A stretch of 64,000 nt of DNA from Strigamia acuminata (Eukaryota), in the NCBI GenBank assembly GCA_949358305.1, contig OX442314.1, forward strand, positions 5,456,001 to 5,520,000. The letters are read 5' to 3'. The translations under genes were made by a program, and so were the position numbers. Shown here piece by piece: positions 3,040-61,760 of the stretch (its first letter is position 1; each line of letters opens with the position of its first letter). The notes under the pieces are model-generated. The model was not told the DNA's origin. It did not search any database and worked only from the letters and a program-made list of their open reading frames with translations.

Positions 3040-5596
3040 AACACATTTGACATGCAGGTGAGAATGGGTGATGTATAGTAACAGCAATCAGAAAAATAAG
3101 AAAACATTTTCTTTGCAAGCTTTCCTTTTACAAAGACCAATTTACCACTTTGTAATTGTTCGGCTAAGACACACGAGCTATATGGTATTGCCAATCGTTT
3201 GATAGAAACTACCGATCCAACTGCTGATTGTCTGTGTCGACGTCCATGCGAACATTTAATATTTATAACATACACTGATGCGGGCATAGCAGATGGTAAA
3301 AACATTATATCTGTGTCACTAGCGATAACTAATGATAAAATCAACGTGTATGAAGAACGGTTCACGTATGACGTTATTGCTTTACTATCAGATTTAGGAG
3401 GCAATCTGGGCCTATTTCTCGGTCTATCTTTAACCTCGTTGCCTGAAATCGCTTGGTATCTAGCAAACATTCGGGAAAATAAAACGGTTAATAAGATTCA
3501 CCGTGTTTACGACAGATGCACAAAGAAAATAACCCAGAGTCAAGAGCTAATTAAAAGAAATGAAGTTTCACCTATTCTTAAGACAATTCTGGTTATAATT
3601 TGCTCGGGAGTAACTTTGTATTGCTTGCAAATTCGTTTAAACTACTACATTGAAAAACCGATAACAAAAATAGTGAGTGTAATTCCACGACACTTTACCC
3701 AATATCCAACGGTCACGGTCTGTGGCGAAACACAAGATGATGGTATTGATGAAGCCAGATTGAATTGGTTGAAACAAACTAAGAAGACCTGCAATCATGT
3801 ATCACCGTGGCAATTTTTCAATGGCAACCTGTCATTGGAAGACATCTGGAATACCCTCAATGTCCACGAAACAGTCTCTTTTGATAATGACGTAACTTAT
3901 ACGGTATATTCCTAAATATAATCATGACAAGAAAATTAGACTGAATTATTTTATATTTATAGCATTTTCTTGGATACAAAACAATACTTAACACATCAAA
4001 AATTCTCATTCCCCTTTTCTTTGGCCATTGTACACAAATAAATTCAGGCATGTACAGTACACGTAAAGCAGGTAATTTCACAAACACTTGGATTCAATCT
4101 CCTTTTCTCCAGAAAAATCAACCAACTTAAAGGTTCCCCTCCATGTTGCGTTTGAATTCCTAACTCCTCCTGAAGTATGTTACCAGCATATAAAGGTAAG
4201 CTAAAATCAATTGGATTTCTGTCAACCGGCAATGATGCACTGGATGGAATGAATCAATTTCATCTAACCTAAAACACCAGGTCACATGTTTTTAATTTTT
4301 TTTATTGTTCAGTTATTTCTAAATAACCCAGAAGAGGAAGTGAATCTTCTGGAACCATTAGATGTAATGTATGGATGGTCGAATGAAGCAACACTCCGAA
4401 TATTTAAAGTAACAAAACAAACAATTTACTGTGTACGAATACGGTAAATCATGTTTATACTGACCTTGATTTTATCAATTAGACTGTACGAATAAATACA
4501 AAGCGCAATCCATGTGAAGAAAACAAAACTGCTTATTTCAAGTGTAAAAATGCTTGCATGCGAAGCAATTTATTTCACAGTATTTACTGCAGGTATGGCA
4601 GATACGACACATTGCATGTTTGAATAATAGAGACAGGGACTTCGGATTGTTAGTTGTTGGCCTTTAATCCGTTGTCTAGGGGTCGGGGGTTCCCATCACC
4701 CGTGTCGACAATACCAACGGGTATGCCACACCAGCACGGTTGCTGGTGTGGCATAGGGTGTCAGCCCCTGAGTGGAGTGGTCGGGTAACACACAACAATC
4801 TGCTATACTCACCAATCCGACAGCCCATGTTGCTGCTGATGGAGGGTGCAACAGGCACATCGCCATGTTACTGAGCGTCACAGTGGTGAATGGGAGGAGA
4901 GCGAAGTCAGCACAGGGCACTGCTGCCCTTGCTGGCTGCAGGACCTGCCTAGTACATGTCTTGTCCCTGTGCAGCCTAAACTCTCTCTCTGTCTGTCTCT
5001 TCACCACACCACTCAGCTCCCTCCTTCTCTTACTGGGTCAGTCTACCCCGCAAGGGGGATGACCTTAGGGCCAGTGAGCAGTGTGTGGAGTGATGCAGGT
5101 CACCGTGGGTGGCCAAGCGGTCACGTTTATTAACATTTGCTTATTTTACACAAATTTAGATTTATATATTTTGTTGTCATCTCTCCATTAATGTATTATT
5201 TTTGCTTTTCAGATTACCCTATATGTCAGCATCAAATTTGCCATATTGCAACACTACAAGCGATGTTACTACTGCTCATAAAATGTACTTGAATAACTAC
5301 GACTCTAATCAAAAACAGTGCAAATGTAAACAACCTTGTGAAATTTTTTTTACCAAACTATTTTGCATGGGGCTAAGTTACCAGTCGATTTTTACACTTT
5401 TGTCACCTTTCGATTAGCTGACAGTTTCACCCAAACCATAGAAGAAAAACAGAAATATCCAATGTCTCAATTGTTAAGCGATATTGGCAGCATTCTAGGA
5501 TTAGGTTTGGGAATGTCATTACTATCTCTCTACATTTGCATTTTAAACAGCTTTAATTGGTTCAGAGTCGGCTTGGGTAGTCAATTTGAAAATTAA
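3040..5596 (+). pseudogene. Tandem double-domain DEG/ENaC channel, copy A (5' part absent or disrupted; frameshift in last exon)
   Basis: Exons ~3040-3057 (remnant), 3120-3903, 3963-4047, 4113-4195, 4313-4408, 4483-4592, 5213-5596 match copies B/C. Two TM2 motifs (LLSDLGGNLGLFLGLS; LLSDIGSILGLGLGMS). 1-nt deletion in the A3T8 run at 5341-5351; upstream homology lost at ~3040. Confidence 0.8.
4655..5125. mobile_element. Interspersed GC-rich repeat (putative solo-LTR family), copy 1, in last intron of copy A
   Basis: Colinear similarity with 40740-41215 (GGCCTTTAATC...TAGGGG; CTTAGGGCCA...GTGTGTGGAGTGATGCAGGTCACC...GTGGCCAAGCGGTCAC). Confidence 0.6.
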
Positions 5597-21787: not shown

Positions 21788-21822
<35 letters not shown>

Positions 21823-25294: not shown

Positions 25295-25677
25295 ATGGCC
25301 GCGCTCTCTCCGTTCGCGAAATCTGTTTTTACGTCCGTTTCTTCGCTGCTCAGGTAAATTACTCGATTGTTTTGATGTTTTTTTTGTGGTTTAATGTTTA
25401 TTGTATTTGCAGACCTGTGTGCGGGATTCAACAGACTGCATTAGGACTAAAAAATGTAAGCACGATGTCTTCGGCGGCGTTTGGTTTGGGTTTATTTCGG
25501 ACGTGTTTTCTACCGATGCATCAGTCGGTTCGTACGACCGTGCGAAACCACTTCCCGAAACCGAGCGAATACAAACGAGTCAGTCGACACGGCTATAAGA
25601 AGCGAATGTCGACTATTTCTGGACAGAAAATTATCATGAGGCGAATTTTGAAAGGAAGATTTGTTCTCTCTCACTAA
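25295..25677 (+). CDS. MRPL34: Mitochondrial ribosomal protein bL34m (exons 25295-25353, 25413-25677)
   Basis: N-terminal presequence-like region, then PKPSEYKRVSRHGYKKRMSTISGQKIIMRRILKGRFVLSH, the L34 signature. Confidence 0.92.
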
Positions 25678-25929: not shown

Positions 25930-28900
25930 TTACGGTCCGTCAGATCCCACTGACAGTACGGGCTCCTCGTTTGCATTGTATTTAGTTCTCTGCTGATACC
26001 AATTGTAACTGTTTATGATCCAAAGGTAGAAAGACAGTAAGGACATTCCCAAGCCTAGTCCTACGATGCTGCCTACATCGCTTATAAATTGAGATGTCGG
26101 GTATTTTTCTTTCTCGACTATCGTCTCTACGAAACTATCCACCACGACGAGTTGTAAAATTGTCATATGATTCAATGGCATTGCTCTTGCAACCATCATG
26201 GTAGTGTGATAAAAAATATTTTCACAAGCTTGTTTACATTTGCATTGTTTTTGATTAATTTTATAATTGTTTAAGTATGTGAGATGGGCGCCTTCAACGT
26301 CTTTTACAGTGTTGCAAGGTGGTAAGTTAGATGTTGACATGTACGGTAATCTGAAACAAGAAAGTTTGGTTAAAACCAAAATTCAGCCAGTTTAAAACGG
26401 GGAATATTATTGACACCCCCCAAATGTACTGTATTTAAAGGTCATGGGAAGAGAAAAATAAAAATTGACAAGAAGATTACTTATGTCTTTATTAGACCAA
26501 ACCGTTGTTCGTGATGGATCAATTGTTTCCAGATTATTATATCGTTTGTTTAAACTTTGAAAAATTATTAAACGTCCTCCATTTTTAGTTTACGAAAGTT
26601 TAAAAAATTTGCCATTGGTGGCGCTTTTTATGACGTTATCGATGACAAACGAACAGCTTTTTAGCATGGGCTTGGCTTCATTTAACCACAGTGCATTTAA
26701 GAGTTCTGAAAATTTTTTTCCATTAATTTGACAGTACTCTTAGGTTATTGGCTTTTAATATTCAGTAAATTATTATTTACTATTTGGTGCATGCGTATAT
26801 GTTCAAAATAACTTGTCACGGTTAATTTTGGATGTACTAATTAATTATAACAAACATCGCACAAAAGCTAATTTGGCGCAATGAGTTTGGGCAAAGTTTG
26901 TAGATTCCTCTAAACAATTGTCTCCTTCAAATGTGGACATCCGGGGACTCAAAGAATCTAAACTCGTGGTGACTAAACATTATTTATATTAGACAGTCTT
27001 CTTACTTACAGGTGGGTGTTGTAGATGTAAAATAATGAAGATGCGCAATGATATTGACCTCAGGGGGGGGGGAGGGCGAGGGATATCAACGAGGAGTGAA
27101 ATATAAAATATGTCGGCATGAAAGTAGCGCAATAGGGTTATTAGTATGAGAGAGCATTTTTAAGGGCGCAAATAATAAGTGACATTCTCCTAATGTTAAC
27201 TAAGGGAGGTGGTTCCTATCAGAAGACAAGAAGAGAAGTGATTTTAGTTGGTCTGAATAAAAACAAGTAAACTTAGTCATGTAACTGGTCAACTTAAGAT
27301 GGGTGAAGGGATGAAAGGTATAAATAAAGATCCGATTGTTGGAAATAATCGTATTCGCAACATCTTGCTTGCGCATCAATTAACAGAAGATGAATCATCA
27401 GATAAGAAAGAATGAAATCAGAAAATAATATAAGAAAATAGGATGGAATAGTCTAAGTTAAATCAAATGAAAAAAGAGGGTGGGTAGCCTGCCCGTGATA
27501 AACTAATAAAAAATTTTCATAGCTCTTAACGAAGCTAAGCCCATGGATCGTTTGTCGTCGATGACGTCATAAATAGCGCTACCAACGGCAAATTTTTTAA
27601 ACTCTCATAAACTAAAAATGGAGGACGTTTAATAATTTTTCAAAGTTTAAACAAACAATATAGAATTCATTTAAAACAACTGCCCTACCTGCAATTTATC
27701 ATTCGTAGTAAATTATTTTGCTTGCAAGCATTTCTACACTTGGAATAAGCACTTTTGTTTATTTCACATGGATTACGCTTTGTATTTCTTCGTGTTGTCT
27801 ATTGCACGAAAATAAAATAACACCGGATCAGAATAAGCCAATCAGATTACTTGCATAATTTTTGTTTACCTTAAATATTCTAATCATTGCTGTATTTCCC
27901 AAACCGTAGTGTAAATTGAGTGGCGCCAAAATGTTATCTTCCTCTGCTGCTGGATTACTTAGATAAACCTGTAAAGTGATATTCATTGTCCAAGCTGTCT
28001 AAACCAAACAATTTGTTTTGCTAGGGTCATGCTAGCAGTAACAGTAATGCTTAGTAATAGTCTCATCATCATCAATAAAATTTGAAATTGTTTTCTTTAC
28101 CCATAGATGTTGGTCACATCCTTCTGGTGGAAAAAGAGATTGAAGTAGAATTATAATACTGGGTTTTAGGAGATGTGTTTTATCTGGAAAATTGAAGAGA
28201 GGTGGAATTAATATGGAAAATACCAGAAGTATGTGGGTCAAGATAGTTTTTATTATAGTTAGTCTTGGGAAAACATGTTAGATTACTTTCTGCTTTAGGA
28301 GAAGCCAAATATCATCAAAAACATGTGTTAATTACCTATTACTATTCGAGTGCAATGACCAAAAGGCAGTGGAATAATATGTTTTGTTGCATTTAGTGGT
28401 ATATCAAATCCTTTCACAACCTACAAATACAAAAGAAATTTCTGTCATTGTCACTATCATTAGGCTTTATGGTCACTGGTATTACTTTATTATTTATGTT
28501 GCTCCTGAGATTAATCTTTTCATGGATGTTGCGTGTCTTCCATATTTCTTCCAAAGACAATTTATTACTGAACAATTTCCAGGGTGACATGTCACTGCTG
28601 CAGCTTTTGTTGTCACGTTTAAGCAAATGTAATCTGGCTTCTTTCATGCCATCATTTTTCGTTTCCCCGCAGATTGTTGCAGAAGGAAATTCGGTATACT
28701 GCCGTTGAACTATTGTAATGACTGTCGTTACTGGTTCATCAATGTAGTAGTTGAAGCGAATGTGCAAGCAATATAAAGTAAATCCTGCACTAACTAATAC
28801 TGGTATTAACTTAATCTTTTCTAAGACTCCGTTTGTTTTTGTTTTTGTTTCCTCACGCGTCACCTTCTTCTTGCACGCTTTGAAGAGACGGTGAATCTTA

Positions 28901-31228
28901 TTAACGAGTCTCTTTTGGTGGTTGTTTGATGCAACATAATATAAATTCCAAATGATTTCAGGTAATGAGATTAAGGATAAGCCAAGAAACAGGCCCAGAT
29001 TGCCTCCTAAATCTGACAGTAGGGCAATAACATCATAAGTGTACCGTTCTTCATACACGCTAATATTTTCGTTGGTCATTGCAAAAGATATAGATAATAC
29101 ATTTTTATCATCTGCTAAGCCTGAATCAGTATGTTGTGTAAAACTGATTTGTTCACATGTCCGTCGACATAAACAATCAGCAATAGGATCCGTGGTTTCA
29201 ATCAACTTGTTTGCAATTCCATATTGCTCCTGTGTGTCGTTTGAGCATTGACAAGGTGGTAAATTGATCTTCATATTAATAAATGGCAATCTTTGAAGAA
29301 TGCAATATTATTTATATTAAATATGGATGGCCAGGGTTCTAGAAACTCTGTAGTGAGTGACTATTGTTCAGTGGACTGTCAGCCAGAACAGCACATTATG
29401 ATGGAATGTGAAATCTTCGATTGGGTTAAATTTATACTCACCAGGGCGGCGCAAGTGTGCAAAAGGGGCAAGGAGGATACAAGGAGCATTTAATTACACA
29501 GAAATTGTTTTGTTACAAAAGGCAGACATTGAGGTCAAATTCATTCTTAACTAGACTTTGACCGATATCAATATTTTGGAGTATCGCCGATTCCGATAAT
29601 CGGCAACCGAATATCGGCCGATACCGATACCTGCGCCGATATTAAAATTAAAATGTCCGACCCCCCCATCCCCCAAAATAAAAAAAATTTATTATTTATT
29701 AATTTATTTTATGTTTTAAAAACATTTTTGAAGCAGTATCGTTTTAGACTAAAACGATATGCAGTATATGTATACTGTATACTGCTTAAAGCGTTTCTAA
29801 CGATACGTTTTAGAAACGTGGCAATATCGGTATCGGCCTCGCAAAAAAATATCGGATCCGATATCGGTGAATACCGAAATATCGGCCGATAGCTGATACC
29901 GATACCGGTATCGGTCAAAGTCTATTTTTAACTCATGTTTATGGCTTTAAACGTCTTTTAATTGCTGAAAAGTTAATGTAAATTTGAACTTTCTTGTTCT
30001 GTTGATTGTTTGCACCCTTAGCACACTAGCGCCATTCACTGTAATGGCGAGTGTCTGAACTACAGAAGCCTCCTCATTATCTACTTGGTTGGTCTACTTA
30101 CCTGCAGGTTAAATGGGTCTGAAACATTCTTGTCAAGCATCTGCGGTAGCAGGATTCGTATTGATCTTGAGTGGAGCACGAATTCATCGATGAATTCAGA
30201 AATATGAACTGAAATTTAAATGATAAAAAATTAATGAAACAGTAAAATTGTACATTTTTACAACTCCAAATTATAACTTTGTTGTAATTTAAATCGATTT
30301 TTAGTGTTGTCCCAGTCTGTTTTGGTATAAGAAAATTATAGTATCCAAAATCATATACGGATAAAATAATCTAAATAAAAAGAGAAAAAAATTACTCCCT
30401 CGGTTTAATTAAATTTACTTATTTAACTTTACAACGTATGAGGCTTGAGGACATGTATCTTCATACATTTTCTTGATCTTCACTGTCAGTAGTTTTCCAA
30501 CAAACCAGCTGCTTGAATGCAATTCTAATCATAAGACAAACATTTTATTTCATATTTATTTGAATGTACAGAGTACAACTTACTAAATTGAAATGCTTTG
30601 CATATTCCATATGGATTGTCAATTTCCTTCTGCATCACAGTTTTATTTGAATATCCCTAAGCACAGAGTTTGTTAAAATTGTTTTAGTTTATATGTAAAA
30701 ATGTATTTTAACCAATTTTACTTTCATTTCGATGTTAACTATCTCTTTGGATATATTGGTCGCTTTCCAAAGTTCATCCATATCATAAGTTGGGATTGCC
30801 ATGAGCGCTTTCACCATGTTTAAGCAATTAAATAAATGTGTCTTGACTTGACCTGATTCATTGGCGTCAAGCTTTGGATAAGTTTTATTCCAAAGCCTGG
30901 CCATTTCTTTTGTATTGCCACTACAGATCATCAAATTTGGTAAAGCTACTTCATCTGATTTCGACATTACGTCAACAGTCGTAGGATAACTTAAGTAATA
31001 CATTACTCTATCACACGTCTGATATGTGAGCATGCACGTGCAAAATAGGAGTAGAAATAACCAAAATCCATGACGCCTGCTCCAACGTTTTCTACTGTTT
31101 ACGAAATCATCCAAACCAATTAAATCGCAGTTTGGTTTGTTGGCGTCATCTTTTATCACGCGTTGAATTTCTGTACGTAGTTTGCTTAATCTTTGCATGT
31201 TTCTTCTCATCAAGTAATTTTTTTGCAT
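25930..31228 (-). CDS. Tandem double-domain DEG/ENaC (amiloride-sensitive channel family) protein, copy B, intact, 824 aa
   Basis: 11 GT-AG exons: 31228-30722, 30656-30584, 30524-30433, 30370-30278, 30208-30102, 29290-28486, 28420-28336, 28183-28101, 27968-27870, 27798-27689, 26350-25930 (2475 nt, open). Two copies each of TM1 + PxxxIC, GxC, Cys-rich thumb (CxCxxxCE) and TM2. Confidence 0.9.
26538..27662. mobile_element. Non-autonomous DNA element with long (~120-160 bp) TIRs in the last intron of copy B
   Basis: TTTGTTTAAACTTTGAAAAATTATTAAACGTCCTCCATTTTTAGTTTA... at ~26545 is inverted at ~27547-27660; TATA at both ends. Confidence 0.75.
29552..29924. mobile_element. hAT-type MITE in intron 5 of copy B
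   Basis: TIR TAGACTTTGACCGATA / TATCGGTCAAAGTCTA; 8-bp TSD TTCTTAAC/TTTTTAAC (7/8); CCGATA subterminal repeats. Confidence 0.85.
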
Positions 31229-34485: not shown

Positions 34486-34537
34486 CCTCTTTCTTAACAT
34501 GAAAATACTTTAATACATATGAAATTATAATCCGACA

Positions 34538-42386: not shown

Positions 42387-42916
42387 TATATTGTTGTTTA
42401 AAAGTTCATGCAAACGGGTTTTAACGACCGTTTATGTGTTTTTGAATGCGCCTACTGTTTACAATGAAAATGTAGAAAGATAGTAATGACATTCCCAAAC
42501 CTAATCCTACAATGCTGCCGATATCGCTTAATAATTGAGAGATTGGATATTTCTGTTTCTCTTCTATGTTCTCGGTGAAACTATCAGCGAATCGAATATT
42601 TACATACGTGAAGAAATTAACTGGTAAGTTAGCCCCGTACAAAATGGGATGGTAAAATATATGTTCACAAGGTTGTTTACATTTGCACTGTTTTAGATTC
42701 GAGGCGAAATTCTTGAAGTATGTTGTATGAGATATAGAAATATCTTTTGCGTTGTTACAGTCAGGCAAATTAGAAGTTAACATATACGGTAGTCTGAAAA
42801 ATAAAAATAACATCTCATTAATGAATAAATGACAACGAAATGTGAAAATAGATAAAAATAAATGTGGAAAAAGCAAATATAGTTGTGTGAATTTTAAACA
42901 AGCATGTTAATATGTA

Positions 42917-44197
42917 TACTCTTTCCACACTCAAAAGGCCACCCTCAAAGCTTGGCTCCCATTGGCCAAGTCTGATCACTCAGAACTGCAGTTGAACTTG
43001 TGGTCACCCAGTTGGGTGATTATTCCCCCCTCCCGGTGGATACCATCCTTCTGAGTCACTGCAAAGACGGGTCGTTCCCCTCGCGTTGGCTCGGCCTTCC
43101 CCCCCTGGGAAGCGCGTGCCCGAGGGAAGTGAGGTGACCGGTGGCCAGCCCCCATTGGCTGTCTATGGCCCCTCACTCTAGTGCATAAAAGGTGGAGTTT
43201 CCCGCCTGAAATCAGAACTTACACAAACGACACCAAGAACACAGCAACTACCTCACTATCAGACCAACTTCAAGTACAAGTTAGGATTGATTGAGGATCG
43301 CTGAGTAAAGTGCAATTGTAACTCTCACGAATTTACTTGAGAACAATTACGGCGTAAGCAAGCGAATAGTCCTTGTGGATTCACACTGAATAATCGTCCC
43401 CACGATTATTCCACCAAGTCAGCGTTTGAGCGCTTTGTAAGGAACCCCCTGTTCCTGGTCAAGGCCTCTGCGACGCTAAACTTAACTCCTAGACAACAGG
43501 CACGGATAGAAGACTCGAAAGAGCATTCCACCGCGTCCGTGAACGACGAATCCGTGACGAATTAACGACAACTCGAGACGCCACCATTGTTCCGTTGACC
43601 ACTCGGAACTGAGGACGCCATCTTGAGAAATCCTTTGTTCGACTGTGACCAAGTCGACTCTAGAATTATTACTAAGTGTATTTTAAGGCATAATGCCTGT
43701 TGAATAAATTACTTGTTCATTTACTTACATTTGGTATTCATTTGGGTATTAACATAATAGATCACAGGTAAAGTATAACATGTTAGCTCGCTTAAGTAGT
43801 ATTTTAACCTATACGAAGTAGGACGTGACAAACTACTGCTATGAGGAAAAGTAGTTCCCTTTGATTTTGAGTCTTTTCCTGAATAATAATGGTTGAAATG
43901 ATGTACATTTAATGGTATTGTGTAATAAAATATGTTTTCTAGTTTGAAAATAAAATTTTATGTTGTTTTTAAATAAATTGCATTTATTTTAATTTTATTG
44001 CTTGCTATGTCTGGAGAGCAAACAATTTCTAAACAATGGGAAATCGATTGCAATGTCTGTACTTCTATTTATATCTGTATGTCTGTGTAATGCATTTCTG
44101 GTGTTTTGGATCTTCTTTTTGTATCAGTACACAAGTGAAATGGCTTGGCCAATGGGAGCCAAGCTTTGAGGGTGGCCTTTTGAGTGTGGAAAGAGTA
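42917..44197. mobile_element. Non-autonomous TA-TSD DNA element with 54-bp perfect TIR in the last intron of copy C
   Basis: TACTCTTTCCACACTCAAAAGGCCACCCTCAAAGCTTGGCTCCCATTGGCCAAG is exactly inverted at 44144-44197; TA on both sides. Confidence 0.88.
42999..43830 (+). mobile_element. Solo LTR (832 bp) nested in the TIR element
   Basis: TGT...ACA termini, 4-bp TSD AACT (42995-42998, 43831-43834), CATAAAA and AATAAA motifs. Confidence 0.8.
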
Positions 44198-47017
44198 TAG
44201 CAATCTGCACTAAGGTGTAAATAAAATGAAAAAGTGTCAAGCAGTTACCCTACCTGCAGTTAATGCTTCGAAATAAATTGTTATGCATGCAAGCCTTTTT
44301 ACACATCAAATAAGCAGTTTTGTTTTCTTCACATTGATTGCGCTTTGTATTTCTTCGCGCACTCTATTTTATAAAATCAAGGTTGGTATAAAGTTGATGT
44401 ACTGTAGTCAACATATTGTTTAATTAACTACCTTATATATTCTAAGTATGTGACGGTGACGACCACAACTCCCATTTAACAATGGTACCGGGAAGAGATC
44501 GCGATAAATAACAGTGAATACAATACGAGATAAATACAAGACAATTTATTGTTGGCAAACAATATGCAGTGAGCTAAATTATACATAAGACTAATGCCAA
44601 CATTTGGCAAGTTAACTGACTATTAAACTATACAAAGCATAGGCCAATTGGTCCTAAAATAATATCATTACGTGTCTGGGATAAGGGAGCGGTTTCCCCA
44701 TCGCTCGACCTGATTTACAGATGTCATCTAAGCCGGATGGCTGTGTCCTGGAGTCCGATATGGCTTCGCTGGTTTCCTTGGTTCGCTGTGTAAATTATCG
44801 CACGTCGATAAATCGAATGATCTGAGCATTGCGGTTGACTTTGTCTGCACCGCCACAACTTTGGGAGGATATTGGTATAAGTAAATGTATTCATTTTACT
44901 TATCAATATTCCGCTTATGAATTATATTTAATTCATATCGTTGTGAATTCTTATTTAGATATTTTTGTGGATAAGTTGTCATCAACTTATCAGTTACATT
45001 TGCGTCTTTGATGTAATCGTGATCGTAATTAAGTCTTCTGACTTGGTTAATCAACTTGTCGCCAAGTTAATATTTAGCTGTTATAAATAAAATGAAGATT
45101 AGGCTTCCCGTCGCAACACACAATTGCCGTCGAAAGAAAATATACGCCTTGCAATGCAGAACGGTATCAAGCGTCCCCTGCGTCGCGACACGGTCGTTCG
45201 TCTGGCGATTGACGGTATCACGTACACAGGAGTCGATAGCTCGCGGCTCCGCACAGCAGTATAATCTCTCGCGGTACTAATAATAGACCGACTACTTTGG
45301 CATCGAATACCATGAGAATCAGCTTGCCAAACACTTGGTGCTACTCGTGGTTACTGTAAAACAGACTGCTTTGGCACCATCCGGTGAAGGAACTAATTCT
45401 CAACAATACCGATGCTACTCGTGGTAACGGAATACGTTCATACCGAAAAAGACAACTTGGTCCTGTCCGGAGGATACTGAATTGCACAACGGCGGGTTCT
45501 CCCTCGGCGTCGCAACCGTAGACTGTAACATTTATGCAACATAATGATCCCAGCACTTCGACTTCAATTGCCGGCGGTGGCATGATTCTGTAGAATCATG
45601 CAACGGTTCTTTGTGAATAAATCAACAAAGAACCAAAAGGTTTTTTTACGTGAACAACGAATCATATTTCTTAAGTAACAATACCAAACAGAAAATAATC
45701 AAACAGAGCTGCAGAATGGCCGGTTGTTTGGGTTTATATAACCTGACTGGATTAAGGATTAATCCAGTTATCCAATTGGAACATGGGTTCCACGAATCCC
45801 TCCAATCCCGTATCACCGGAAGTGGATACGGAGGAACAATGTGCTAATTCTCACCACAACCGGAACTGGATACCCAGGACCGGAAATGGATCCACCAATC
45901 AGATCTATTGGTTGATCGATTGATCACCAAATGTCCTGTCCCGCAGAAAATGGAAGTTACATTGTATTTAACATCACAAGACATTAATATATCTTTATAT
46001 TAATGTTCACAAAGCTTCGTTTCATTCTAGTAAATATAGTTTTATATTTATTTACATGTTTTATATTCATATCTTGAATTTGCCGCTAAATCGTAATCGC
46101 GCCATCTTGTGGCAACATTGCGCATTGACAAATGCGGTTTTAGCAGACGACTCTTCGTGATTCGGCCGGAATCCTTTGATATCAAGTAGGAATGAGTGTT
46201 TATTCTTAATAAACGAACATCTTTGTATTTGAAACATCATAAATAACTTTATTCCAGACATTTATCAGTTTTACACAGAATATCTTCGAGATATCATGAT
46301 AATGGCGCAACAGCGCTTCTTTCTAAGAAAATAGGCATTTATAGCCATTGTAAACCGTCACACATCCCCCTTAATAACACAATTATATAAAATTTTATAG
46401 AGTTTTCGTTATTCTCCTAATTAGCATAAATGCTATTTTCGGACTTGATGTATCTTGGAGATACCGTGACTTCCAATTTCGAATTTGAGCTTACATAAAC
46501 TAACTTGAATTATCTAAGTTCTGATTTTCTGCCGAAATAATCTTTTCTAATAGCCTAAATTCAAGTCCAGAATTTATTTCCAAGTCTTCTTTTTGAAGAA
46601 ACTTTCGTCATACATAAAATCATCATTTGTGTTATCACAAAATATTTATTTCATATGCCTAGTCAGATGTATCGCTATAAATATACAATAAATAGCTTTT
46701 AGATGATAAGAGTTGACAATTAAGAAATCATAATTGTCCCCCTTAATTGTCATGACCGGAGTCACTTGGTATTCTTTGTACAATTGACTAATTTAATTAA
46801 ACTAGTTGTCTTAATAATGTAGCATTACTTTTCAAAATTTTGTTAATTCTAACTTTTATATTTTGTCCCCCTTTTCTTTAGAAGAGAGGTCATGATTTTT
46901 AGAAGAGGATTTTCTGTTTACACTATAATCGGGGAATCTTTGTGTATCATATCATGTTAATCAACATGATTCTTTGCTAAATATTGAGCTCGCATATTTG
47001 CAAATTTCCGAGATCTC

Positions 47018-48439
47018 TCAGCCTGCTGTACTGATTTCTTTCGACGTTTTTTTCTTTGGGCAGTTACACACAGTGTACTCACTTGGCAGTGTAAATGACC
47101 GTGACGACCCAACTTTTTGTTTTAGGTCATCTCTGGAAAACCATACATGAATGGGACCCTCATTGGAAAACCATACGTGGAAAGGACCCATATTTGGAAT
47201 TGTGAAATCCCGCAACAAACGAGGGGATCTATATTTGACTCTAAGTCGTGGAACTGATGATTGGAAACCTGGGTTTTCAGTCAGTTTTTGAACATGTTGG
47301 TTTGTACTTGAAGTTTCTTCATCACCAGCTGGACTTGGTGACCGAAAACGCTTTTTTGAAGTTCTTAATTCCTCTCGTTGAGATGAATTATTCTGGATAT
47401 TGCAGGGTTGCTTTCCAGACGCAAATTGTTGTATCTCCGTCAGATTGACGACTGGGACGGGTTTTAGTCGTTGGTTACGGTATTGATTTCGAAATACGAA
47501 TTGTTGCGCTTCGTTTATATTTTTAAATTCAGCTGAATTTAACTGGTATTGTTTACAATACTGTTCGAATTGATACCGGATCTCCCGTGGGTTAGTCAAA
47601 AAACTTTCTTTTTTAGGTTTAAAATCATTCTCATTATCGTGTTGGTAATACTTTTTCAAGGGAAAAGTTTGCTTGACCTTTTTTCGATTTGAAATGGGCG
47701 TTAGGTAGAATTGTCTTGGCTGGGGACTCTTCTTGGTAGACAAATCATACGTCCGCAAACATGAGTTTGTGATCGGCGATCGGGCACGTTGTTGTACGTT
47801 ATTTGACTGCAAATGTTTGTTTGGAGTCCGAATATCTTTCCTTTGCGTTGATATTGGTGGCCCAAAACTTTTGTTTACGGTTCCCAATTCTTTTGATAGC
47901 GGTAGGTTAATCGACAGATTAAGGCTAGCCACATATCGTTGTGCTTCAGCTGGATTAGCATATCGAACTGAAATTAGCTGATCTCGATTGTAAACGAGTT
48001 TTAATTTGTTCTGAACAACCGACTGGTTAGTTAACGAACTCTCTGGACGAGAATTATTAGGTTTATAATTCTCTTCCCCCTTATCTACCGAATTAGGTGG
48101 TTTAAACTTTTCTAACTTAGATCCCCTACTGGATGTTTGAAACATAGTATGAGAATCTTGATTCACTAAGTTTCGGCTGTATGTTTGTGGATTCCGTACT
48201 GGATCTTGATGTGAAGATTGAGATTGGGTACGATCTCGCCAGTTCCTAGCTTTTACATAGTCTGAAGCTTCGATTATATTTTTAAACTTGGTTTTATCCA
48301 GTCCATGACGATTACAATACAGAGTAAAATGATCGGGAATCTTTTCTGTTTGATCGCCAAGTGGTACAGAACTTAAATTTAAGTTTGTCTGCTTATTATT
48401 TCCTTTTGGATCGATCATATTCAATGGTTTTTGAGCCAT
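47018..48439 (-). CDS. Orphan ~473-aa ORF inside the LTR element
   Basis: Only long ORF in the 5.8-kb internal region, sense to the element; duplicated motif FxxYCxxxxLxxxxFKNIxEAxxxV and duplicated GPxHVWFS; otherwise low-complexity N/Q/S/K-rich. Confidence 0.7.
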   Translation of the reverse strand: MAQKPLNMIDPKGNNKQTNLNLSSVPLGDQTEKIPDHFTLYCNRHGLDKTKFKNIIEASDYVKARNWRDRTQSQSSHQDPVRNPQTYSRNLVNQDSHTMFQTSSRGSKLEKFKPPNSVDKGEENYKPNNSRPESSLTNQSVVQNKLKLVYNRDQLISVRYANPAEAQRYVASLNLSINLPLSKELGTVNKSFGPPISTQRKDIRTPNKHLQSNNVQQRARSPITNSCLRTYDLSTKKSPQPRQFYLTPISNRKKVKQTFPLKKYYQHDNENDFKPKKESFLTNPREIRYQFEQYCKQYQLNSAEFKNINEAQQFVFRNQYRNQRLKPVPVVNLTEIQQFASGKQPCNIQNNSSQREELRTSKKRFRSPSPAGDEETSSTNQHVQKLTENPGFQSSVPRLRVKYRSPRLLRDFTIPNMGPFHVWFSNEGPIHVWFSRDDLKQKVGSSRSFTLPSEYTVCNCPKKKTSKEISTAG

Positions 48440-51400
48440 AAAAAAATTCAAAATCTGACGATTTTAATTCTTTAATTTATAAAGAAGACGAATATAATAC
48501 ACTTTTCAACAAGAAACACTTCTAAACTTTACTTTTGACAAAATAAAATTAAACTTCGCGTTTGTTTGACACGTGTTAGCTTTTGCAGGTTACACGGCAC
48601 ACAAAATTCGAATCGTGACTGAAATCGGGACGGCGTGGTCAAGATGACTCTGGAACACGTCTTCTGGTCTGGTCTGGATGCGAATGATCAGTATCTGATC
48701 TGGTCCTCCTTTAATAGCAGGGGGCTGGGGATCCCTAGATCTCCCAACTTCTGATTGGCGGATGTTAGTGTCGGCCAATGGTATAAAGGACGTTACATCT
48801 ATTTAGTAGTTCTCTACTAAGTCCGTTCCCTTCGAGATTCAATTTTACCGATAAAATAAAATTCCTTCGGGAAGACATTCGTAAAATATTGTATTTTTCA
48901 AATGAAAATAAAATAAACTTACTTCAATCTTCTTGAACTTTGGGATTTTTACCAATCCAAATAATTAAATAACTTTTCTTCAAAAAATATTTTTCTTTGA
49001 TTATTCCGTTTAGTGTGTAATATCATTACAACCACAGTTTTAATAAAGTTTTCTCAAACTCTCAATTTTTCTTATTCTTATTCAATTATCGTTCAAATAA
49101 TCATTCCTTTGTAATTGAAATCTATTTTCGATTCCCAACATTGTGTATTCATTTCCAATAGGAAGAATAATTTGACCAAGTCTTTACTTTTTCGGGTTTA
49201 AATTCCATTTTTCGAGTGTGAAAAAATAAATTTTCACCATCCATCTCCCCCTTTTTTAACAAATTTTTTTAACAAATAAAAATTCGTTAAAATTCTTTAA
49301 ATTTGTTTTGCGAGAAAAATTATCTAATTCTCTAATCTTCCAAAAGAAAATATTCGAAATTTTACTTTAAACGATAAAGTTATTGGTACAAATGTGTACT
49401 TGTTTTTCGGGAGAAAACTATTCGACAATCCTTTAGACTTTTGGGTAAAAATTATTCATCAAATCTTTCTTTTTTGATGACAATTGCTTTGATTTTTCGA
49501 AAGAAAATATCTAGCTAAATTCCACTTTTCCTGAGCGGACAATTGTTTTCACAATTAGTTATTCCTTTGCGATATTTACGAAGGACGTGTCTTTGATTAT
49601 TCGTTTTAATAATTTTCGTCCCCCTTATCTCTAATAACGAGATGTTTTTGCAGAGATCTTTTATCTTTTGAATGAAAGAATATTTAAATCTCAATTGTCG
49701 TAAATACCTTCATCTGCTGCAGCATTTCCTCAATTTGAACTTTTCAAATGAAAAGACAAATCTGGAGAACTTTCACTGTCAAACTTCTATTCCTATCGCG
49801 CCAAAATTCGTAATTCACTGGTTTGGAATTCCGTATAACACGTGACACAATAACAGTATCGATGTCACAATTAAGCAGTTTACTACTCGGTCCGCGCGAG
49901 GACATGTAAATTACTTTTTTCCGATAAAAATAATTTTTCTTTGAAAAATATTTGAAATTGATTTTTCACAACTACTTTTGAATGAAATAAAATGAAGTTA
50001 TTCCAACTTTTCGTTAATTGCTCACACATAACATTCCCTTTACTGTGGGATTTGCATCGAAATTCCATTTTTAAAGAACCTTTCTTTTACTTATCGCAAA
50101 TAAAACATATTCAATCGTTTTTCTGATTAAACTTTAACACGTAAATTACGAACGAAATATATGATGACATTCCATTAACCTTTAGGAAAATTGACTAAAT
50201 TCTTAATTTTTAGAGAAAAATAATGTATCTAGAATCTTTCCTTTTCCGAATAAAATCTATGTTCAAAATAGAAGATAAATCTTGTGCAATTCTTAGTTTT
50301 TTCGAATGGAAAAATACAACTTTTCATCAGCGGTGATTTATTTGATTTTTCCGAAAGAAAAATAATTACTTTGAAACTTATTTTCTTCGTTTAAATCAGC
50401 TATCTGATTTTAAAGCTTCAATCCAATTAAAAAATATTCGCTCCGTAAATATTTCATGTGGCAAAGTTCATAGCCACAAATGGATTTGTTATTCCGGTTT
50501 TAAGAAATCATGTGGGAAAATGTCCGATTAGATTACTAAAAATATTCGTTGTTTTTCAAACAGCTAAATTTCATTTAGAAATTCTCAAAATTTGGGAGAC
50601 CCAAATATCGTTGGAAACTTAAAACACTGTTAAATTTCCGAAAGGAAAGATTGAATGAAATCCTTTTACTTTTCCGAGGGAAAGCGTTTATCGTGATTCG
50701 TAACTTTCAATGTAAAAAATACTATTCTACGTGGTCGGCAACTTCATTCGCCGCCATTTTATATTTTCTTAATTTCCATTGTCCCGAAGGAAAAAATGTA
50801 CTTTTTGTGAAAATAGTTAATTCCTTCAAATAAAGGTAATATTCATTTCGATTTGCAAATCTTTTCTGCGAAATGGAGTGTGTTGTTTTTCTCCAACAAC
50901 TAAATTATCTTTGGTACCGATGGCAGTGGAAAAATTAGTTCGCGACACTTAAATAAATCTCTACGAACCTTCTGTAACATTTCTCCGCTGTCTTTTATCT
51001 GTTGTCCGCCATAATTTCCAAGCATTCGTTCGCACCTTGCGTTGAAGGTTTGAGTAGCTTCCCTGCTGCGTTTGATACGGAGATCGACGCGTATTGCTAT
51101 GGCGCGTGGTCGCTGGCTATCGGTGTCGACGTACAGTTACAAGAAACTTAATTTCTTGTAAATATTTCCAAATAGTTGCGGTGTTTTCTTCGTTTTAACT
51201 TTTCAGGTGGAAAGATAAATTCGTAAGAAGTCCGCCTTCTAAACTTGTATGTTTTTAGCTTTTCGAAATAAAACAAACTTCGAAAAAAATATCTGTATTC
51301 TTATTTCACTCGAAACTTTTTTTTTGATTTCTTATTTAAAATACTTCGTATTCCTTAAATTGTCGAACGAAAATAGTAAAGAGAGTTCACTAAACGTTTC

Positions 51401-51489
51401 CATTTCGTCAGTTTAACTTTTCACATGAAAATATAAACTGAAAATCTATTTGTCTGTTTTAACTAAAATTTTTTAGTTAATATCGGATT

Positions 51490-52200
51490 CAAGATTCGCT
51501 TTTGCAATTCGATCGAATTAATTTGCAACCTATTTCAGTGATCGTGTGATAGGTCTATAACTTCCGAAATTCCTAGTTAAAGGACTGTTTTGGTGTTTCT
51601 CAAGAAAATAAACATGGTTTGAAACTTGTCTGTTTTTTAACTAAATCTTTTAGTTAAATATTTATCTCAAAATTCACTTTTACAATTCTATCGAATTTAA
51701 TTGCAACCTAATCTCGGTGGGACCTCCACGTGTGAGATTAGGTGGTAGTCTTTGAAATCCCTAAAATCTTCAAACGAAAATAATGAAGGAAAATCTACTA
51801 CGTATTTCTATTTCATCAGTTTAACTTCTTCACATGGAAATATAAACTGAGAATTTAATCTGTCTATTTTTAACTTAAATCTTTTAGTTAAATATTTATC
51901 TCCAATATTCACTGTTGCAATTCAATCGAATTTAATTGCAACCTAATCTCGGTGGGACCTCCACGTGTGAGATTAGGTGGTAGTCTTTGAAATCCCTAAA
52001 ATCTTCAAACGAAAATAATGAAGGAAAATCTACTACGTATTTCTATTTCATCAGTTTAACTTCTTCACATGGAAATATAAACTGAAAATTTAATCTGTCT
52101 ATTTTTAACTTAAATCTTTTAGTTAAATATTTATCTCCAATATTCACTGTTGCAATTCAATCGAATTTAATTGCAACCTAATCTCGGTGGGACCTCCACG
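51490..52200 (-). repeat. 235-bp tandem repeat carrying three perfect tRNA-Gln PBS copies (51710-51728, 51945-51963, 52180-52198)
   Basis: AATCTCGGTGGGACCTCCA (3' end of animal tRNA-Gln) at 235-bp spacing; degenerate fourth unit near 51525-51555. Confidence 0.9.
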
Positions 52201-55200
52201 TGTGACGGTGACGACCACAACTCCCATTTAACAATGGTACCGGGAAGAGATCGCGATAAATAACAGTGAATACAATACGAGATAAATACAAGACAATTTA
52301 TTGTTGGCAAACAATATGCAGTGAGCTAAATTATACATAAGACTAATGCCAACATTTGGCAAGTTAACTGACTATTAAACTATACAAAGCATAGGCCAAT
52401 TGGTCCTAAAATAATATCATTACGTGTCTGGGATAAGGGAGCGGTTTCCCCATCGCTCGACCTGATTTACAGATGTCATCTAAGCCGGATGGCTGTGTCC
52501 TGGAGTCCGATATGGCTTCGCTGGTTTCCTTGGTTCGCTGTGTAAATTATCGCACGTCGATAAATCGAATGATCTGAGCATTGCGGTTGACTTTGTCTGC
52601 ACCGCCACAACTTTGGGAGGATATTGGTATAAGTAAATGTATTCATTTTACTTATCAATATTCCGCTTATGAATTATATTTAATTCATATCGTTGTGAAT
52701 TCTTATTTAGATATTTTTGTGGATAAGTTGTCATCAACTTATCAGTTACATTTGCGTCTTTGATGTAATCGTGATCGTAATTAAGTCTTCTGACTTGGTT
52801 AATCAACTTGTCGCCAAGTTAATATTTAGCTGTTATAAATAAAATGAAGATTAGGCTTCCCGTCGCAACACACAATTGCCGTCGAAAGAAAATATACGCC
52901 TTGCAATGCAGAACGGTATCAAGCGTCCCCTGCGTCGCGACACGGTCGTTCGTCTGGCGATTGACGGTATCACGTACACAGGAGTCGATAGCTCGCGGCT
53001 CCGCACAGCAGTATAATCTCTCGCGGTACTAATAATAGACCGACTACTTTGGCATCGAATACCATGAGAATCAGCTTGCCAAACACTTGGTGCTACTCGT
53101 GGTTACTGTAAAACAGACTGCTTTGGCACCATCCGGTGAAGGAACTAATTCTCAACAATACCGATGCTACTCGTGGTAACGGAATACGTTCATACCGAAA
53201 AAGACAACTTGGTCCTGTCCGGAGGATACTGAATTGCACAACGGCGGGTTCTCCCTCGGCGTCGCAACCGTAGACTGTAACATTTATGCAACATAATGAT
53301 CCCAGCACTTCGACTTCAATTGCCGGCGGTGGCATGATTCTGTAGAATCATGCAACGGTTCTTTGTGAATAAATCAACAAAGAACCAAAAGGTTTTTTTA
53401 CGTGAACAACGAATCATATTTCTTAAGTAACAATACCAAACAGAAAATAATCAAACAGAGCTGCAGAATGGCCGGTTGTTTGGGTTTATATAACCTGACT
53501 GGATTAAGGATTAATCCAGTTATCCAATTGGAACATGGGTTCCACGAATCCCTCCAATCCCGTATCACCGGAAGTGGATACGGAGGAACAATGTGCTAAT
53601 TCTCACCACAACCGGAACTGGATACCCAGGACCGGAAATGGATCCACCAATCAGATCTATTGGTTGATCGATTGATCACCAAATGTCCTGTCCCGCAGAA
53701 AATGGAAGTTACATTGTATTTAACATCACAAGACATTAATATATCTTTATATTAATGTTCACAAAGCTTCGTTTCATTCTAGTAAATATAGTTTTATATT
53801 TATTTACATGTTTTATATTCATATCTTGAATTTGCCGCTAAATCGTAATCGCGCCATCTTGTGGCAACATTGCGCATTGACAAATGCGGTTTTAGCAGAC
53901 GACTCTTCGTGATTCGGCCGGAATCCTTTGATATCAAGTAGGAATGAGTGTTTATTCTTAATAAACGAACATCTTTGTATTTGAAACATCATAAATAACT
54001 TTATTCCAGACATTTATCAGTTTTACACAGAATATCTTCGAGATATCATGATAATGGCGCAACAGCGCTTCTTTCTAAGAAAATAGGCATTTATAGCCAT
54101 TGTAAACCGTCACAAGTACTACTTCATTCGACCAACCATGTATTAAATCCAATGGTTCCAGAAGGTTAACTTCCTCTTCCTGGTTATTTAGGAATAACTA
54201 TATGAATAATATAGTTCAAAATTAAGTGGCTTTGTGTTTCAGTTTTCTTTAGTTAAAATTGATTTATTTAACTGAATGAGAGAATTTGCTTCATTGAAAT
54301 GATAAGTTATTCACAAACCTTTTTAACAGCCCAAAATGCATCACATTGCTGGTTGACAGATATTCAGATCCAGCTGACTACATTGCTTGTCGTTCAACTC
54401 AATTCCTGTCAACTGGATTCTAGCCTGACGAATCTGGTACACCTTAGCGACCAAACCTTAGCATTTATCACCCTGAAGACAAAGCCAAACAATTGGTAGC
54501 CATTTGCTTAAATTATTTCTTGGTCGCTAAGATGGGCGTCGCTAAAACGTACCATCTTAGGTCAAAGTCGCTAAGATTGGCGACGTATAGTCACTTAATC
54601 CAAGCCTGACGAGATTCAGGTGTTTTACTGTCCATTGATTTTACCTTACCTTCATAGGCTGGTAACACACTTCTGAAGGAAATAAATTTTCAAATACAAA
54701 TTCGAGAGGAACCATTTGGTTATTTGTTTTTTCTGAAAAACAGTGGAAAGATCTGCATCAATTTTCAAACGCATCAGCAATTTTAATTACAGTTAAATAC
54801 GAATTTGAAAAAGGCATTCAACTGCTTTATACACAATCGCCTTAAAATGAAGGAATGAACTTTACACAATTTTTTACCTAAAAACTGATCGTCCAATAGG
54901 ATGATTCGGCTGCTAGGGATAATTCGGGAAAATCATTTTCTATTAGTCTTTTCAGACCTTTAAAAAATTGCCAATTAATCTCATGCTGAAATGGTGGCAA
55001 AACTAAGCAATATCATCAATGGGCTGGGCAGTTAACTCAATTCACTTTATCAAAACAAATTTGACACCTTGTCCAAAAAATCCCAAAAAATTCCCAAATC
55101 ACCTAACTTTATAAGTTTCATCAACATCCAAGCAATAGATTTCGAGATACAAACTTTAGACACCATTGTTGACTTAGCACAAAAACCACAAGATCTAGAT

Positions 55201-56433
55201 GTCTGGAAGTTAAAGCTTAGTCTTTAAAACTTAAGTATAACCTCTCCATATTAGTTTTATCAACATCCAAGCAAAAGATTTTGAGAAACAGACTTTTAAG
55301 GACATCTGACACCATTGTTGACTTAGCACAAAAACCGCAAGATCTAGATGTCTGGCAGTTAAAACTTAGTCTTTAAAAGCTTAGTGTTTGTGAAATTACC
55401 TGTTGCTTTACATGCTTTTAAGATACGTACCTGTATTGATCTGTGTACAATGTCCAAAAGGAAGAGGAATAAGAGTTTTTGAAGTGTTTAATATAGCTTT
55501 AAATCCACGAATATACTATAAACGTCAAATAATTTAATATAATTTTCTAGTCCTGATTATATTTGAGAATGTACCTTATCAGATTTATCATCATCCAAAT
55601 TAAGTGTTTCGTGGACGTTGAGTGTGTTCCATATTTTTTGCAATGACAATTCGTTGTTGAACAATTGCCATGGTGATATATTATTGCAGGTGTTGTTAGT
55701 TTGGATCTCTAAATTCGATCTGGCCTCATCAATATCATCATCTTGTGTTTCACCACAGACCGTGACAGACGGATATTGCGTAAAGCGTCGTTGAACTACG
55801 CTCACTGTTTTAGTTATCGGTTCTTCAAAGTAGTAGTTCAAACGAATTTTCAAGCAATACAAAGTGAAACCTGAGCAAATTATAACCAGAATTGTCTTAA
55901 GAATAGCTGAAACTACTGTTAAACTTGAAGTAAATAAAAAGATATTCAAAGTTTACCAATCAATTTCTAAAGTCCTTGACTACAAGTGGATGTAACAGTT
56001 GAAAATCGCGTTGAAGTCCAAGATGGCGTTGGAGTATAAAGGAGCACGACCACACAGTTTTAGTTGAAAAAGTACACTGAGTTTTCTCTATTCATAAAAG
56101 GAAAAGGAAATGCAAATGACACGGTTCACAGAACCAATCACAAGCATCCGTAAGATAGGGGAATGACGTGTTCAGGCAGAGGAATGCGAAGGGATTAAAA
56201 GGGATTAACAAGTTAAGATTCCAATAAAAGAACAGGTCAACACATCTCAATGGAAATACAAAACACATTATAATATAAAAATGTAACATCGAAATCAAAT
56301 GCACAAATCAAATAAAATCATAAATTCAATATTAAAATTCACAAGTAAAAAATAGAAATATAAATCAACAATACTAATTTAAACAATATAAATGAAACTC
56401 AAATAATAATTCACGCGTAAAATCATCCGATTT

Positions 56434-61704: not shown

Positions 61705-61742
61705 TTTAGTAGATTTTTAGATGAATTCGGAATTTAAAATGT

Positions 61743-61760
61743 TCCCGGGTTTCGGCACCA
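61743..61760 (-). promoter_or_regulatory. Primer-binding site complementary to tRNA-Phe 3' end
   Basis: Plus strand TCCCGGGTTTCGGCACCA, 1 nt from the 5' LTR. Confidence 0.9.

What the first reader, a model, noticed from the sequence alone, without database searches (positions are those of the whole stretch)
25930..31228. Natural two-subunit concatemer DEG/ENaC channel in a family that assembles as trimers
Seen: one spliced 824-aa ORF holds two full subunits. Unit 1 has TM1 (FWLFLLLFCTCMLTY), SYPT, LPNLMIC, PYGIC, Cys-rich thumb and TM2 LLSDLGGNLGLFLGLS. A ~39-aa basic linker follows. Unit 2 has TM1 (LIPVLVSAGFTLYCL), FPSATIC, PFGHC, thumb and TM2 FISDVGSIVGLGLGMS. The TM2-to-TM1 junction lies inside one stop-free 805-nt exon, and is also contiguous in copy A (3120-3903) and in copy C once the BEL insertion is removed. 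Established: ASIC/ENaC/degenerin/ppk channels are trimers of 2-TM subunits with cytoplasmic termini, so the linker topology is feasible, as in engineered concatemers. Inference: the protein must form 2+1 heterotrimers with a partner, paired trimers from three chains, leave one unit unassembled, or be cleaved at the basic linker. I do not recall a characterised natural example, but could not search.
Basis: partly seen in the sequence, partly recalled or inferred. Interest (0 to 1): 0.92.

Follow-up and report, generated by a model that had tools for sequence, protein, structure and literature searches.

The report
Natural two-subunit sodium channel chain
This intact gene, likely from a centipede, joins two different subunits of a sodium-channel family that normally assembles from three separate subunits into one reading frame; it likely borrows a third subunit to close the pore, and shrimps and crabs carry predicted three-in-one versions.

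Summary
Confirmed. An 11-exon, all GT-AG model gives 824 aa with two complete DEG/ENaC units (24% identical, same five intron phases). TM2 of unit 1 runs into TM1 of unit 2 inside one 805-nt exon. Short-read contigs span the junction unchanged, and the linker holds no in-frame ATG, acceptor or polyA signal. This is not a one-off. Twelve named Strigamia maritima proteins belong to the same tandem family. Unit-1 and unit-2 sequences form separate clades, which points to one old fusion followed by expansion. A complete relative folds into two ENaC-type units, nearest to the centipede antennal sensors BRTNaC1 and PDPNaC1. Unit 2 keeps GxS but lacks the 18' glutamate and the pre-TM1 motif. Best reading: a pre-linked two-thirds channel, likely sensory, completed by a single-subunit partner (about 50%). 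Self-assembly without a partner is the main rival. Cleavage at the linker is unlikely. No RNA evidence exists here, and assembly is untested. In passing: decapods hold a separate three-unit single-chain family. Ten literature searches found no description of either family.

The parts
25930..31228 (-). Copy B: intact 11-exon gene, 824-aa two-unit DEG/ENaC
   Evidence: flanked by mRpL34 (Pfam) and a CCS-like gene; no third unit in the window
30722..31228 (-). Exon 1: N-terminus, TM1 (about 31022-31072) and finger of unit 1
30584..30656 (-). Exon 2 (unit 1, GxC motif)
   Evidence: 62% match in copy C
30433..30524 (-). Exon 3 (unit 1 palm)
30278..30370 (-). Exon 4 (unit 1 palm); weak GTTATA donor, placed by the matching intron of unit 2
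30102..30208 (-). Exon 5 (unit 1 thumb)
28486..29290 (-). Exon 6, 805 nt: thumb end and TM2 of unit 1 (about 28948-28998), linker, TM1 of unit 2 (about 28759-28809) and finger
   Evidence: two ASC stretches; spanned by contigs
28810..28935 (-). Basic cytoplasmic linker, about 42 aa (12 K/R, 3 D/E)
28336..28420 (-). Exon 7 (unit 2, GxC motif)
28101..28183 (-). Exon 8 (unit 2 palm)
27870..27968 (-). Exon 9 (unit 2 palm)
27689..27798 (-). Exon 10 (unit 2 thumb)
25930..26350 (-). Exon 11: thumb end, TM2 of unit 2 (about 26017-26067; GMS, no acid at 18') and stop; AATAAA/ATTAAA at 25721
3040..5593 (+). Copy A: broken paralog; junction exon open, exons 1-5 not recovered as matches, frameshift in the last exon near 5342-5351
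42421..63691 (-). Copy C: broken paralog; TM1 of unit 1 missing, BEL/Pao element (55917-62283) inside the linker, a further insertion between exons 9 and 10

Best explanation
The gene encodes two diverged DEG/ENaC units in one reading frame, likely made as one four-helix chain that is predicted to fill two neighbouring places of a three-part channel, with a separate single-subunit ENaC likely filling the third place to form a likely sensory cation channel. Shown: the frame, the two complete units, the shared intron pattern, selection on both units, and a family with position-specific units. Inferred: an ancestral six-exon ENaC gene duplicated in tandem, and the last exon of the first copy fused with the first exon of the second. 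The linker looks like a shortened N-terminus of unit 2 that lost the pre-TM1 motif. The fusion fixes which two units sit side by side, much as ENaC beta-gamma forms a dimer that awaits a third subunit. The many tandem paralogs would act as variable tuning parts. With a partner carrying E18', two of three pore positions are acidic, which would keep some Na+ preference. The stimulus is unknown; protons, heat or a chemical are likely by kinship with BRTNaC1 and PDPNaC1. Odds by step: one chain 0.88; channel-forming 0.8; 2+1 with a single-unit partner about 0.5 overall.
For: Frame and splice model. Intron phases 0,1,0,0,2 at matching alignment columns in both units. No in-frame ATG, acceptor or polyA signal in the linker. 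dN/dS of B vs A 0.23/0.62/0.34 and B vs C 0.28/0.29/0.35 for unit-1 end, linker and unit-2 start. S. maritima T1JEH2 and T1JGJ4 have the same junction spacing of 83 residues. Spacing is 78-106 in 20 of 20 family rows matched. Unit-1 rows (12) and unit-2 rows (14) each form one side of a branch, SH-aLRT 89 and 95; sisterhood of the window's two units is rejected. AlphaFold of relative T1JD34: pLDDT 79.7, pTM 0.72, four long helices; unit 2 matches BRTNaC1 (Z 21.4, rmsd 4.0, 319 aligned) and unit 1 matches PDPNaC1 (Z 20.3, rmsd 3.5, 316 aligned). PDPNaC1 is a trimer (PMC12714832). 18' is acidic in 14 of 20 first units but 2 of 9 second units; losing two of three E18' collapses selectivity in ASIC1a (PMC5449180). 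Single-unit relatives with E18' lie next to the clade (P0078, P0073, P0040). ENaC beta-gamma dimers leave position 1 open (bioRxiv 10.1101/2024.05.28.595834).
Against: No transcript supports the model directly. No partner gene is identified, and the species of P0078, P0073 and P0040 was not looked up. Engineered ASIC1a dimers give currents when expressed alone, though with lower-mass bands (PMC4529235), so a partner may not be needed. Linker dN/dS in B vs A is high (0.62, only 39 codons). The S. maritima proteins are automatic gene models, several incomplete or mis-spliced (P0021 lacks the linker; P0001 lacks two exons). The folded protein is a relative only 24% identical to the window's. Tree support is SH-aLRT from a quick search with long branches. 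One GTGAGG donor-like site lies in the linker (28856). Fused gene models are often artefacts in other animals (PMC12964723, abstract).
Confidence: 0.5

Rival explanations
1. Self-sufficient trimer: tandem chains assemble alone. A second chain lends one unit to the third place and its other unit dangles or seeds a second pore (three chains, two linked trimers; U1-U2-U1 and U1-U2-U2).
For: Engineered ASIC1a dimers conduct without a partner (PMC4529235). Unit 1 is canonical in TM2 and could fill two places. No partner gene lies in the window.
Against: The linker is about 42 aa, and in the relative's model only about 15 residues are unstructured, which is short for bridging two pores (inference). 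A U2-rich pore would have one acidic 18' of three.
Confidence: 0.23
2. Non-trimeric assembly: two tandem chains form a four-unit ring or a dimer of dimers.
For: An even unit count fits this. A tetramer has been claimed for ASIC1a at the cell surface (PMC4529235), and ENaC beta-gamma was seen as a dimer of dimers.
Against: The nearest solved relative PDPNaC1 is a trimer, and reviews state three subunits. The decapod family stops at three units.
Confidence: 0.1
3. Polyprotein or split message: the chain is cut at the linker, or the units are made from separate transcripts, giving ordinary subunits that mix 2:1.
For: The linker is basic and partly flexible. Engineered concatemers show lower-mass bands. 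One donor-like site lies in the linker.
Against: No furin motif in the window and in 23 of 25 junctions, and the linker is cytoplasmic. No in-frame ATG, acceptor or polyA signal. Unit 2 has lost its own N-terminal motif.
Confidence: 0.09
4. Not a conducting channel: the chain is a scaffold, a dominant-negative or a ligand-binding regulator of other ENaCs.
For: Unit 2 has lost E18' and the pre-TM1 motif; unit 1 has IG in place of HG.
Against: Both units keep the upper-gate Asp, the pore glycines and GxS. HG-type motifs occur in only 43.4% of insect PPKs (PMC8438182).
Confidence: 0.05
5. Artefact: two adjacent paralogs with a chance open spacer, or a misassembly.
For: No transcript evidence; merged models of adjacent paralogs likely exist among the hits (units sister to each other in Polypedilum, Asbolus, Oedothorax, Helobdella).
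Against: The junction lies inside one exon, is spanned by short-read contigs, is conserved at synonymous distance of about 0.9 and has position-specific clades.
Confidence: 0.03

Closest known systems
BRTNaC1 (heat-activated; PDB 8ymr/8ymw; PMC9974506) and PDPNaC1 (proton-gated; PDB 9jf7; PMC12714832), centipede antennal ENaCs
   Same: Best sequence hits in the PDB (E 3e-12 and 2e-9) and best fold matches for each unit; similar compact ectodomain; neighbouring group in the tree.
   Different: One unit per chain (421 and 431 aa); PDPNaC1 is a homotrimer; only about 20% identity, so not orthologs.
Mammalian ENaC alpha/beta/gamma (and delta), with the beta-gamma dimer intermediate (PDB 9btu)
   Same: Heteromeric logic: two fixed subunits plus a third in position 1.
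   Different: Separate genes and chains, activated by luminal furin cuts (recalled); here two units share one chain.
Engineered ASIC/ENaC concatemers (PMC4529235, PMC5449180)
   Same: Head-to-tail TM2-to-TM1 linkage on the cytoplasmic side works.
   Different: Artificial, with whole termini plus a Gln linker; here natural, with a trimmed linker and units 24% identical.
Decapod three-unit DEG/ENaC proteins (e.g. KAK7013173.1, KAK7028032.1, XP_050723734.1, XP_053632225.2, XP_069977668.1; annotated as hypothetical or uncharacterized)
   Same: Natural concatemer with position-specific units.
   Different: Three units, so likely self-contained; a separate clade, so likely an independent fusion.
Internally repeated channels such as four-repeat Nav/Cav, two-pore channels and K2P (recalled)
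   Same: Subunit fusion lets pore positions diverge.
   Different: Other folds. There the repeat number divides the symmetry (2 or 4 into 4); here 2 does not divide 3.

Membership tests
DEG/ENaC superfamily (each unit) | Pfam ASC PF00858 domain | tested here: met
   Exon 1, exon 6 (2 stretches) and exon 11 pass the curated cut-off; two domains with an own profile
DEG/ENaC superfamily (each unit) | Two TM helices around a large Cys-rich ectodomain | tested here: met
   Hydropathy; 14 and 12 ectodomain Cys in the ranges counted
DEG/ENaC superfamily (each unit) | Post-TM1 F/LPxxxxC and GxC motifs | tested here: met
   LPNLMIC/YGIC and FPSATIC/FGHC in the model; motif names as in the table head
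DEG/ENaC superfamily (each unit) | TM2 upper-gate Asp and GxS belt | tested here: met
   D..GLS and D..GMS
DEG/ENaC superfamily (each unit) | Palm/thumb/finger fold | tested here: met
   Tested on relative T1JD34, not on the window's protein: both units Z above 20 to centipede ENaCs
DEG/ENaC superfamily (each unit) | Pre-TM1 HG motif (common, not universal) | tested here: not met
   Unit 1 has IG in register by eye; unit 2 has none. Present in 43.4% of insect PPKs
Canonical DEG/ENaC channel subunit (whole chain) | One subunit, two TM helices, per polypeptide | tested here: not met
   Two units and four TM helices in one frame; filed therefore as a tandem variant, not a canonical subunit
Canonical DEG/ENaC channel subunit (whole chain) | Trimeric assembly | not testable with these tools
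   No complex was folded; needs cryo-EM or subunit counting
Canonical DEG/ENaC channel subunit (whole chain) | Amiloride-sensitive Na+-preferring current | not testable with these tools
   Needs electrophysiology; E18' present in unit 1 only
BRTNaC1/PDPNaC1 orthology | One clade with the solved centipede sensors | tested here: not met
   Rows P0097 and P0044 (taken as BRTNaC1 and PDPNaC1 by length and matched range) lie in a neighbouring group
Insect pickpocket subfamilies I-VII | Placement within the PPK clade | not tested
   No named Drosophila PPK set was in the tree; the insect-named rows fell far from the centipede clade

The most novel reading that the evidence does not exclude
Arthropods have repeatedly turned the trimeric DEG/ENaC channel into multi-repeat single chains. 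Centipedes use a large family of pre-linked two-thirds receptors that plug into a shared single-subunit co-receptor (a tuning-receptor plus co-receptor code), and decapods use complete three-repeat, asymmetric single-chain channels: the ENaC counterpart of four-repeat Nav/Cav channels.
Probability: 0.4. Interest if true: 0.9.

Novelty: new variant of a known kind. Interest (0 to 1): 0.8.

Why it matters
The reviews I saw define DEG/ENaC subunits as two-helix chains that form trimers. A natural, conserved two-unit chain does not divide into three, so it forces an unseen assembly rule: an obligate partner, linked pores or a non-trimeric ring. It offers a native test of subunit order and of the beta-gamma-plus-one assembly idea, and a natural short-linker template for defined concatemers. 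It also exposes an expanded, uncharacterized candidate sensory-receptor family in centipedes, beside the heat and proton sensors already solved, and points to single-chain three-repeat channels in farmed shrimp, crab and crayfish.

Tried and rejected
No whole genome is held for this window, so paralogs and partner genes could not be counted. RNA search: no RNA holder listed; this is no evidence on expression. Summed contig depths and dozens of variant contigs at both TM regions suggest many paralogs but are no copy number. Word-indexed homolog searches were weak: 1 hit, 0 hits, only the query itself. The spliced 824-aa protein itself was not folded or scanned against Pfam; a relative stood in. 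The Atlas gave only single-unit-length clusters for T1JD34 and did not answer for the decapod protein. Foldseek and VIA compare single chains, so they do not show how the two units pack. A third unit near copy B was sought and not found. Rejected: furin cleavage; a recent tandem duplicate with merged models; shared origin with the decapod family (separate clades; limited support). P0138 was left out of the second tree because it matches the start and the end of P0011 and drew that protein's units together. Literature: searches listed no paper on natural multi-unit DEG/ENaCs; the S. maritima genome paper's main text has no ENaC term (supplements not searched). The library lacks most subscription papers. 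Drosophila ppk18 remains an open precedent: a neighbouring model CG13121 belongs to the locus and the gene spans 5639 bp, but the listed protein is 553 aa with 2 TM; that CG13121 was itself once listed as an ENaC is recalled and untested. Earlier scan notes held nothing on this architecture (the 8 of 33 shown).
Full report
Observation. The gene lies on the minus strand. Pfam ASC hits exon 1, exon 11 and twice the ORF over exon 6. A profile built from 48 single-length hits finds two domains, aa 8-441 and 452-792. The two units are 24% identical. Their five introns have the same phases (0,1,0,0,2) and fall at matching alignment columns, 135/132, 161/163, 191/190, 232/232 and 269/269. The gene is therefore a tandem duplicate of a six-exon ancestor whose last and first exons merged into exon 6 (inference). 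Neighbours are mRpL34 and a CCS-like gene, and a six-frame profile search of 2006 ORFs finds ENaC pieces only in copies A, B and C.

Is the junction real? Contigs of two DNA runs (one study, perhaps the source sample) span it with no difference. At lower likeness, one paralogous contig crosses it with compensating gaps and four joints carry both sides. The linker is open only in the coding frame; 7.0% of intron windows and 6.6% of shuffles would be open. Copy A keeps it open at a synonymous distance near 0.9. dN/dS (Nei-Gojobori) is 0.23, 0.62 and 0.34 for unit-1 end, linker and unit-2 start against copy A, and 0.28, 0.29 and 0.35 against copy C; the last exon gives 0.27. Between TM2 and TM1 my patterns find no in-frame ATG, no acceptor and no polyA signal, but one donor-like site. 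No RNA run was available, so the single transcript is inferred, not shown.

Relatives. A search with the junction ORF gave 263 hits, of which the best 150 were listed. The top hits cross the junction in one stretch. Of 31 proteins for which I obtained source records, 16 are Strigamia maritima UniRef entries; 12 of these belong to the window's family and 4 to a younger group. The best match is 50% identical over 696 columns, so the window is likely a related centipede; this is inferred. In 26 proteins tested, my pattern found 25 junctions in 24 proteins (P0003 and P0021 missed); the 20 rows of the window's family space the GxS glycine and the post-TM1 proline by 78-106 residues, exactly 83 in the window, T1JEH2 and T1JGJ4. 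Nine of those 20 rows are unnamed. T1JD34 (791 aa) and T1ITL7 (805 aa) look complete with four hydrophobic peaks.

Tree. In a quick IQ-TREE of 66 units, 14 second units form one side of a branch (SH-aLRT 95) and 12 first units another (89); the window's units sit with their positional counterparts. Forcing the window's two units together costs 281 log-likelihood units (p-AU 3e-122; hypothesis named after seeing the trees). I left out P0138 and set the younger group apart after the first tree; long branches are flagged. By contrast, multi-unit models from a midge, beetle, spider and leech have units that are each other's sisters, as expected for merged neighbours. Position-specific clades argue for one old fusion kept through a family expansion.

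Structure. AlphaFold of T1JD34 on 51 sequences gave pLDDT 79.7 and pTM 0.72, with long helices at 42-71, 359-407, 423-452 and 755-790 and a loop of about 15 residues at low confidence in the linker. Each unit matches a centipede antennal ENaC: BRTNaC1 Z 21.4 (rmsd 4.0, 319 aligned) and PDPNaC1 Z 20.3 (rmsd 3.5, 316 aligned); these are also the best PDB sequence hits. No listed solved chain covers more than one unit. How the two units pack was not measured.

Mechanism. Both units keep the upper-gate Asp and GxS. Unit 1 has E18'; unit 2 has Leu. Across the family 18' is acidic in 14 of 20 first units and 2 of 9 second units. In ASIC1a concatemers one lost E18' keeps the Na>K>Cs order and two lost collapse it (PMC5449180, passages). 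Unit 2 also lacks the pre-TM1 motif in most members, though P0010 and P0022 keep a PGL-like one in the linker, which suggests the linker is a trimmed N-terminus. Single-unit relatives with E18' lie beside the clade. PDPNaC1 is a homotrimer (PMC12714832, passages), and ENaC beta-gamma forms dimers lacking position 1 (bioRxiv 10.1101/2024.05.28.595834, passages). I therefore favour a pre-linked two-thirds channel plus one single subunit (0.5). Against it, engineered ASIC1a dimers conduct alone (PMC4529235, passages), so self-assembly gets 0.23, a four-unit form 0.10, cleavage or split messages 0.09, a non-conducting role 0.05 and artefact 0.03. A sensory role is inferred from kinship (PMC9974506, passages) and from gene turnover: two of three local copies are broken.

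A wider pattern. The same search returned three-unit proteins from decapods: Halocaridina (1244, 1289, 1053 aa), Eriocheir, Cherax and Penaeus. Their units form position-specific clades apart from the centipede clade. Ten related ORFs of 960-1272 aa fill 68-96% of contigs of 3.0-4.7 kb, which looks like transcripts but is not shown to be RNA. One (1029 aa) folds with six long helices, pLDDT 70.6, pTM 0.58; its third unit matches ASIC1 at Z 18.2 (rmsd 4.0, 313 aligned). This shows that concatenated DEG/ENaCs recur, though it does not prove the centipede assembly.

Novelty. Ten searches listed no description. I read passages of PMC8438182 (plus table rows), PMC5203786, PMC3583452 (plus 4 of 5 supplements), PMC7067487, PMC7510291, PMC9822975 and PMC10148893; none of the passages mentions fused units. 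PMC8438182 notes 46 insect PPKs with three to five predicted TMs without comment on fusion in the passages seen. PMC4244043 has no ENaC term in its main text. For PMC12964723 I saw the abstract only. The sequences sit in UniRef as uncharacterized. Subscription papers and unseen supplements could hold a precedent, and ppk18 is an unresolved lead. Verdict: real, a new architectural variant of a known channel family, interest 0.8.

Noticed in passing
Database proteins P0028, P0059, P0136, P0039, P0047, P0055, P0079, P0081, P0084, P0102, P0108, P0152, P0155: A three-unit single-chain DEG/ENaC family, named members all from decapod crustaceans, with position-specific clades; in the roughly 1000-aa subfamily the middle unit has lost finger and most of the palm but keeps thumb and both helices. 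No description found.
   Followed up: partly
S. maritima P0005, P0006, P0013, P0007 (T1IU28, T1IZL2, T1IL99, T1ITG7): A second, younger centipede group with units 40-60% alike; overlapping models suggest three units in a row with a conserved 49-aa linker. Could be a real three-unit gene or merged neighbours.
   Followed up: partly
window 55917-62283: Young BEL/Pao LTR element (522-bp LTRs 99.8% identical, 1760-aa ORF, 5-bp target duplication) sitting in the linker of copy C.
   Followed up: partly
window 44449-46362 and 52201-54114: Two identical 1914-bp direct repeats flanking a 481-aa ORF without Pfam hit (47018-48463, minus), inside copy C between exons 9 and 10; possibly long LTRs of another element.
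   Followed up: no
window 2122-2850: Copia-type gag fragment where the 5' exons of copy A would be expected.
   Followed up: partly
window 26538-27662 and 29549-29927: The two long introns of copy B each hold an element with terminal inverted repeats (115 and 26 nt arms), abundant in the DNA runs; likely non-autonomous DNA transposons.
   Followed up: partly
window 11887-25677 and 31850-38620: Ordinary neighbours: XPG_N/Exo1-like start (11887), mRpL34 (to 25677), CCS-like gene (from about 31850) and a kelch-like gene (34.5-38.6 kb, by eye); MULE transposase piece at 8296-8865.
   Followed up: no
window 13756-14445 and 39709-40525: Tandem repeat arrays that give long spurious ORFs.
   Followed up: no
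Database proteins P0020, P0131, P0132, P0049, P0016, P0027: Multi-unit or mixed-domain ENaC models from a midge, beetle, spider, leech and unnamed sources that look like merged neighbouring genes; the Polypedilum three-unit model (1460 aa, short linkers) deserves an RNA check.
   Followed up: partly
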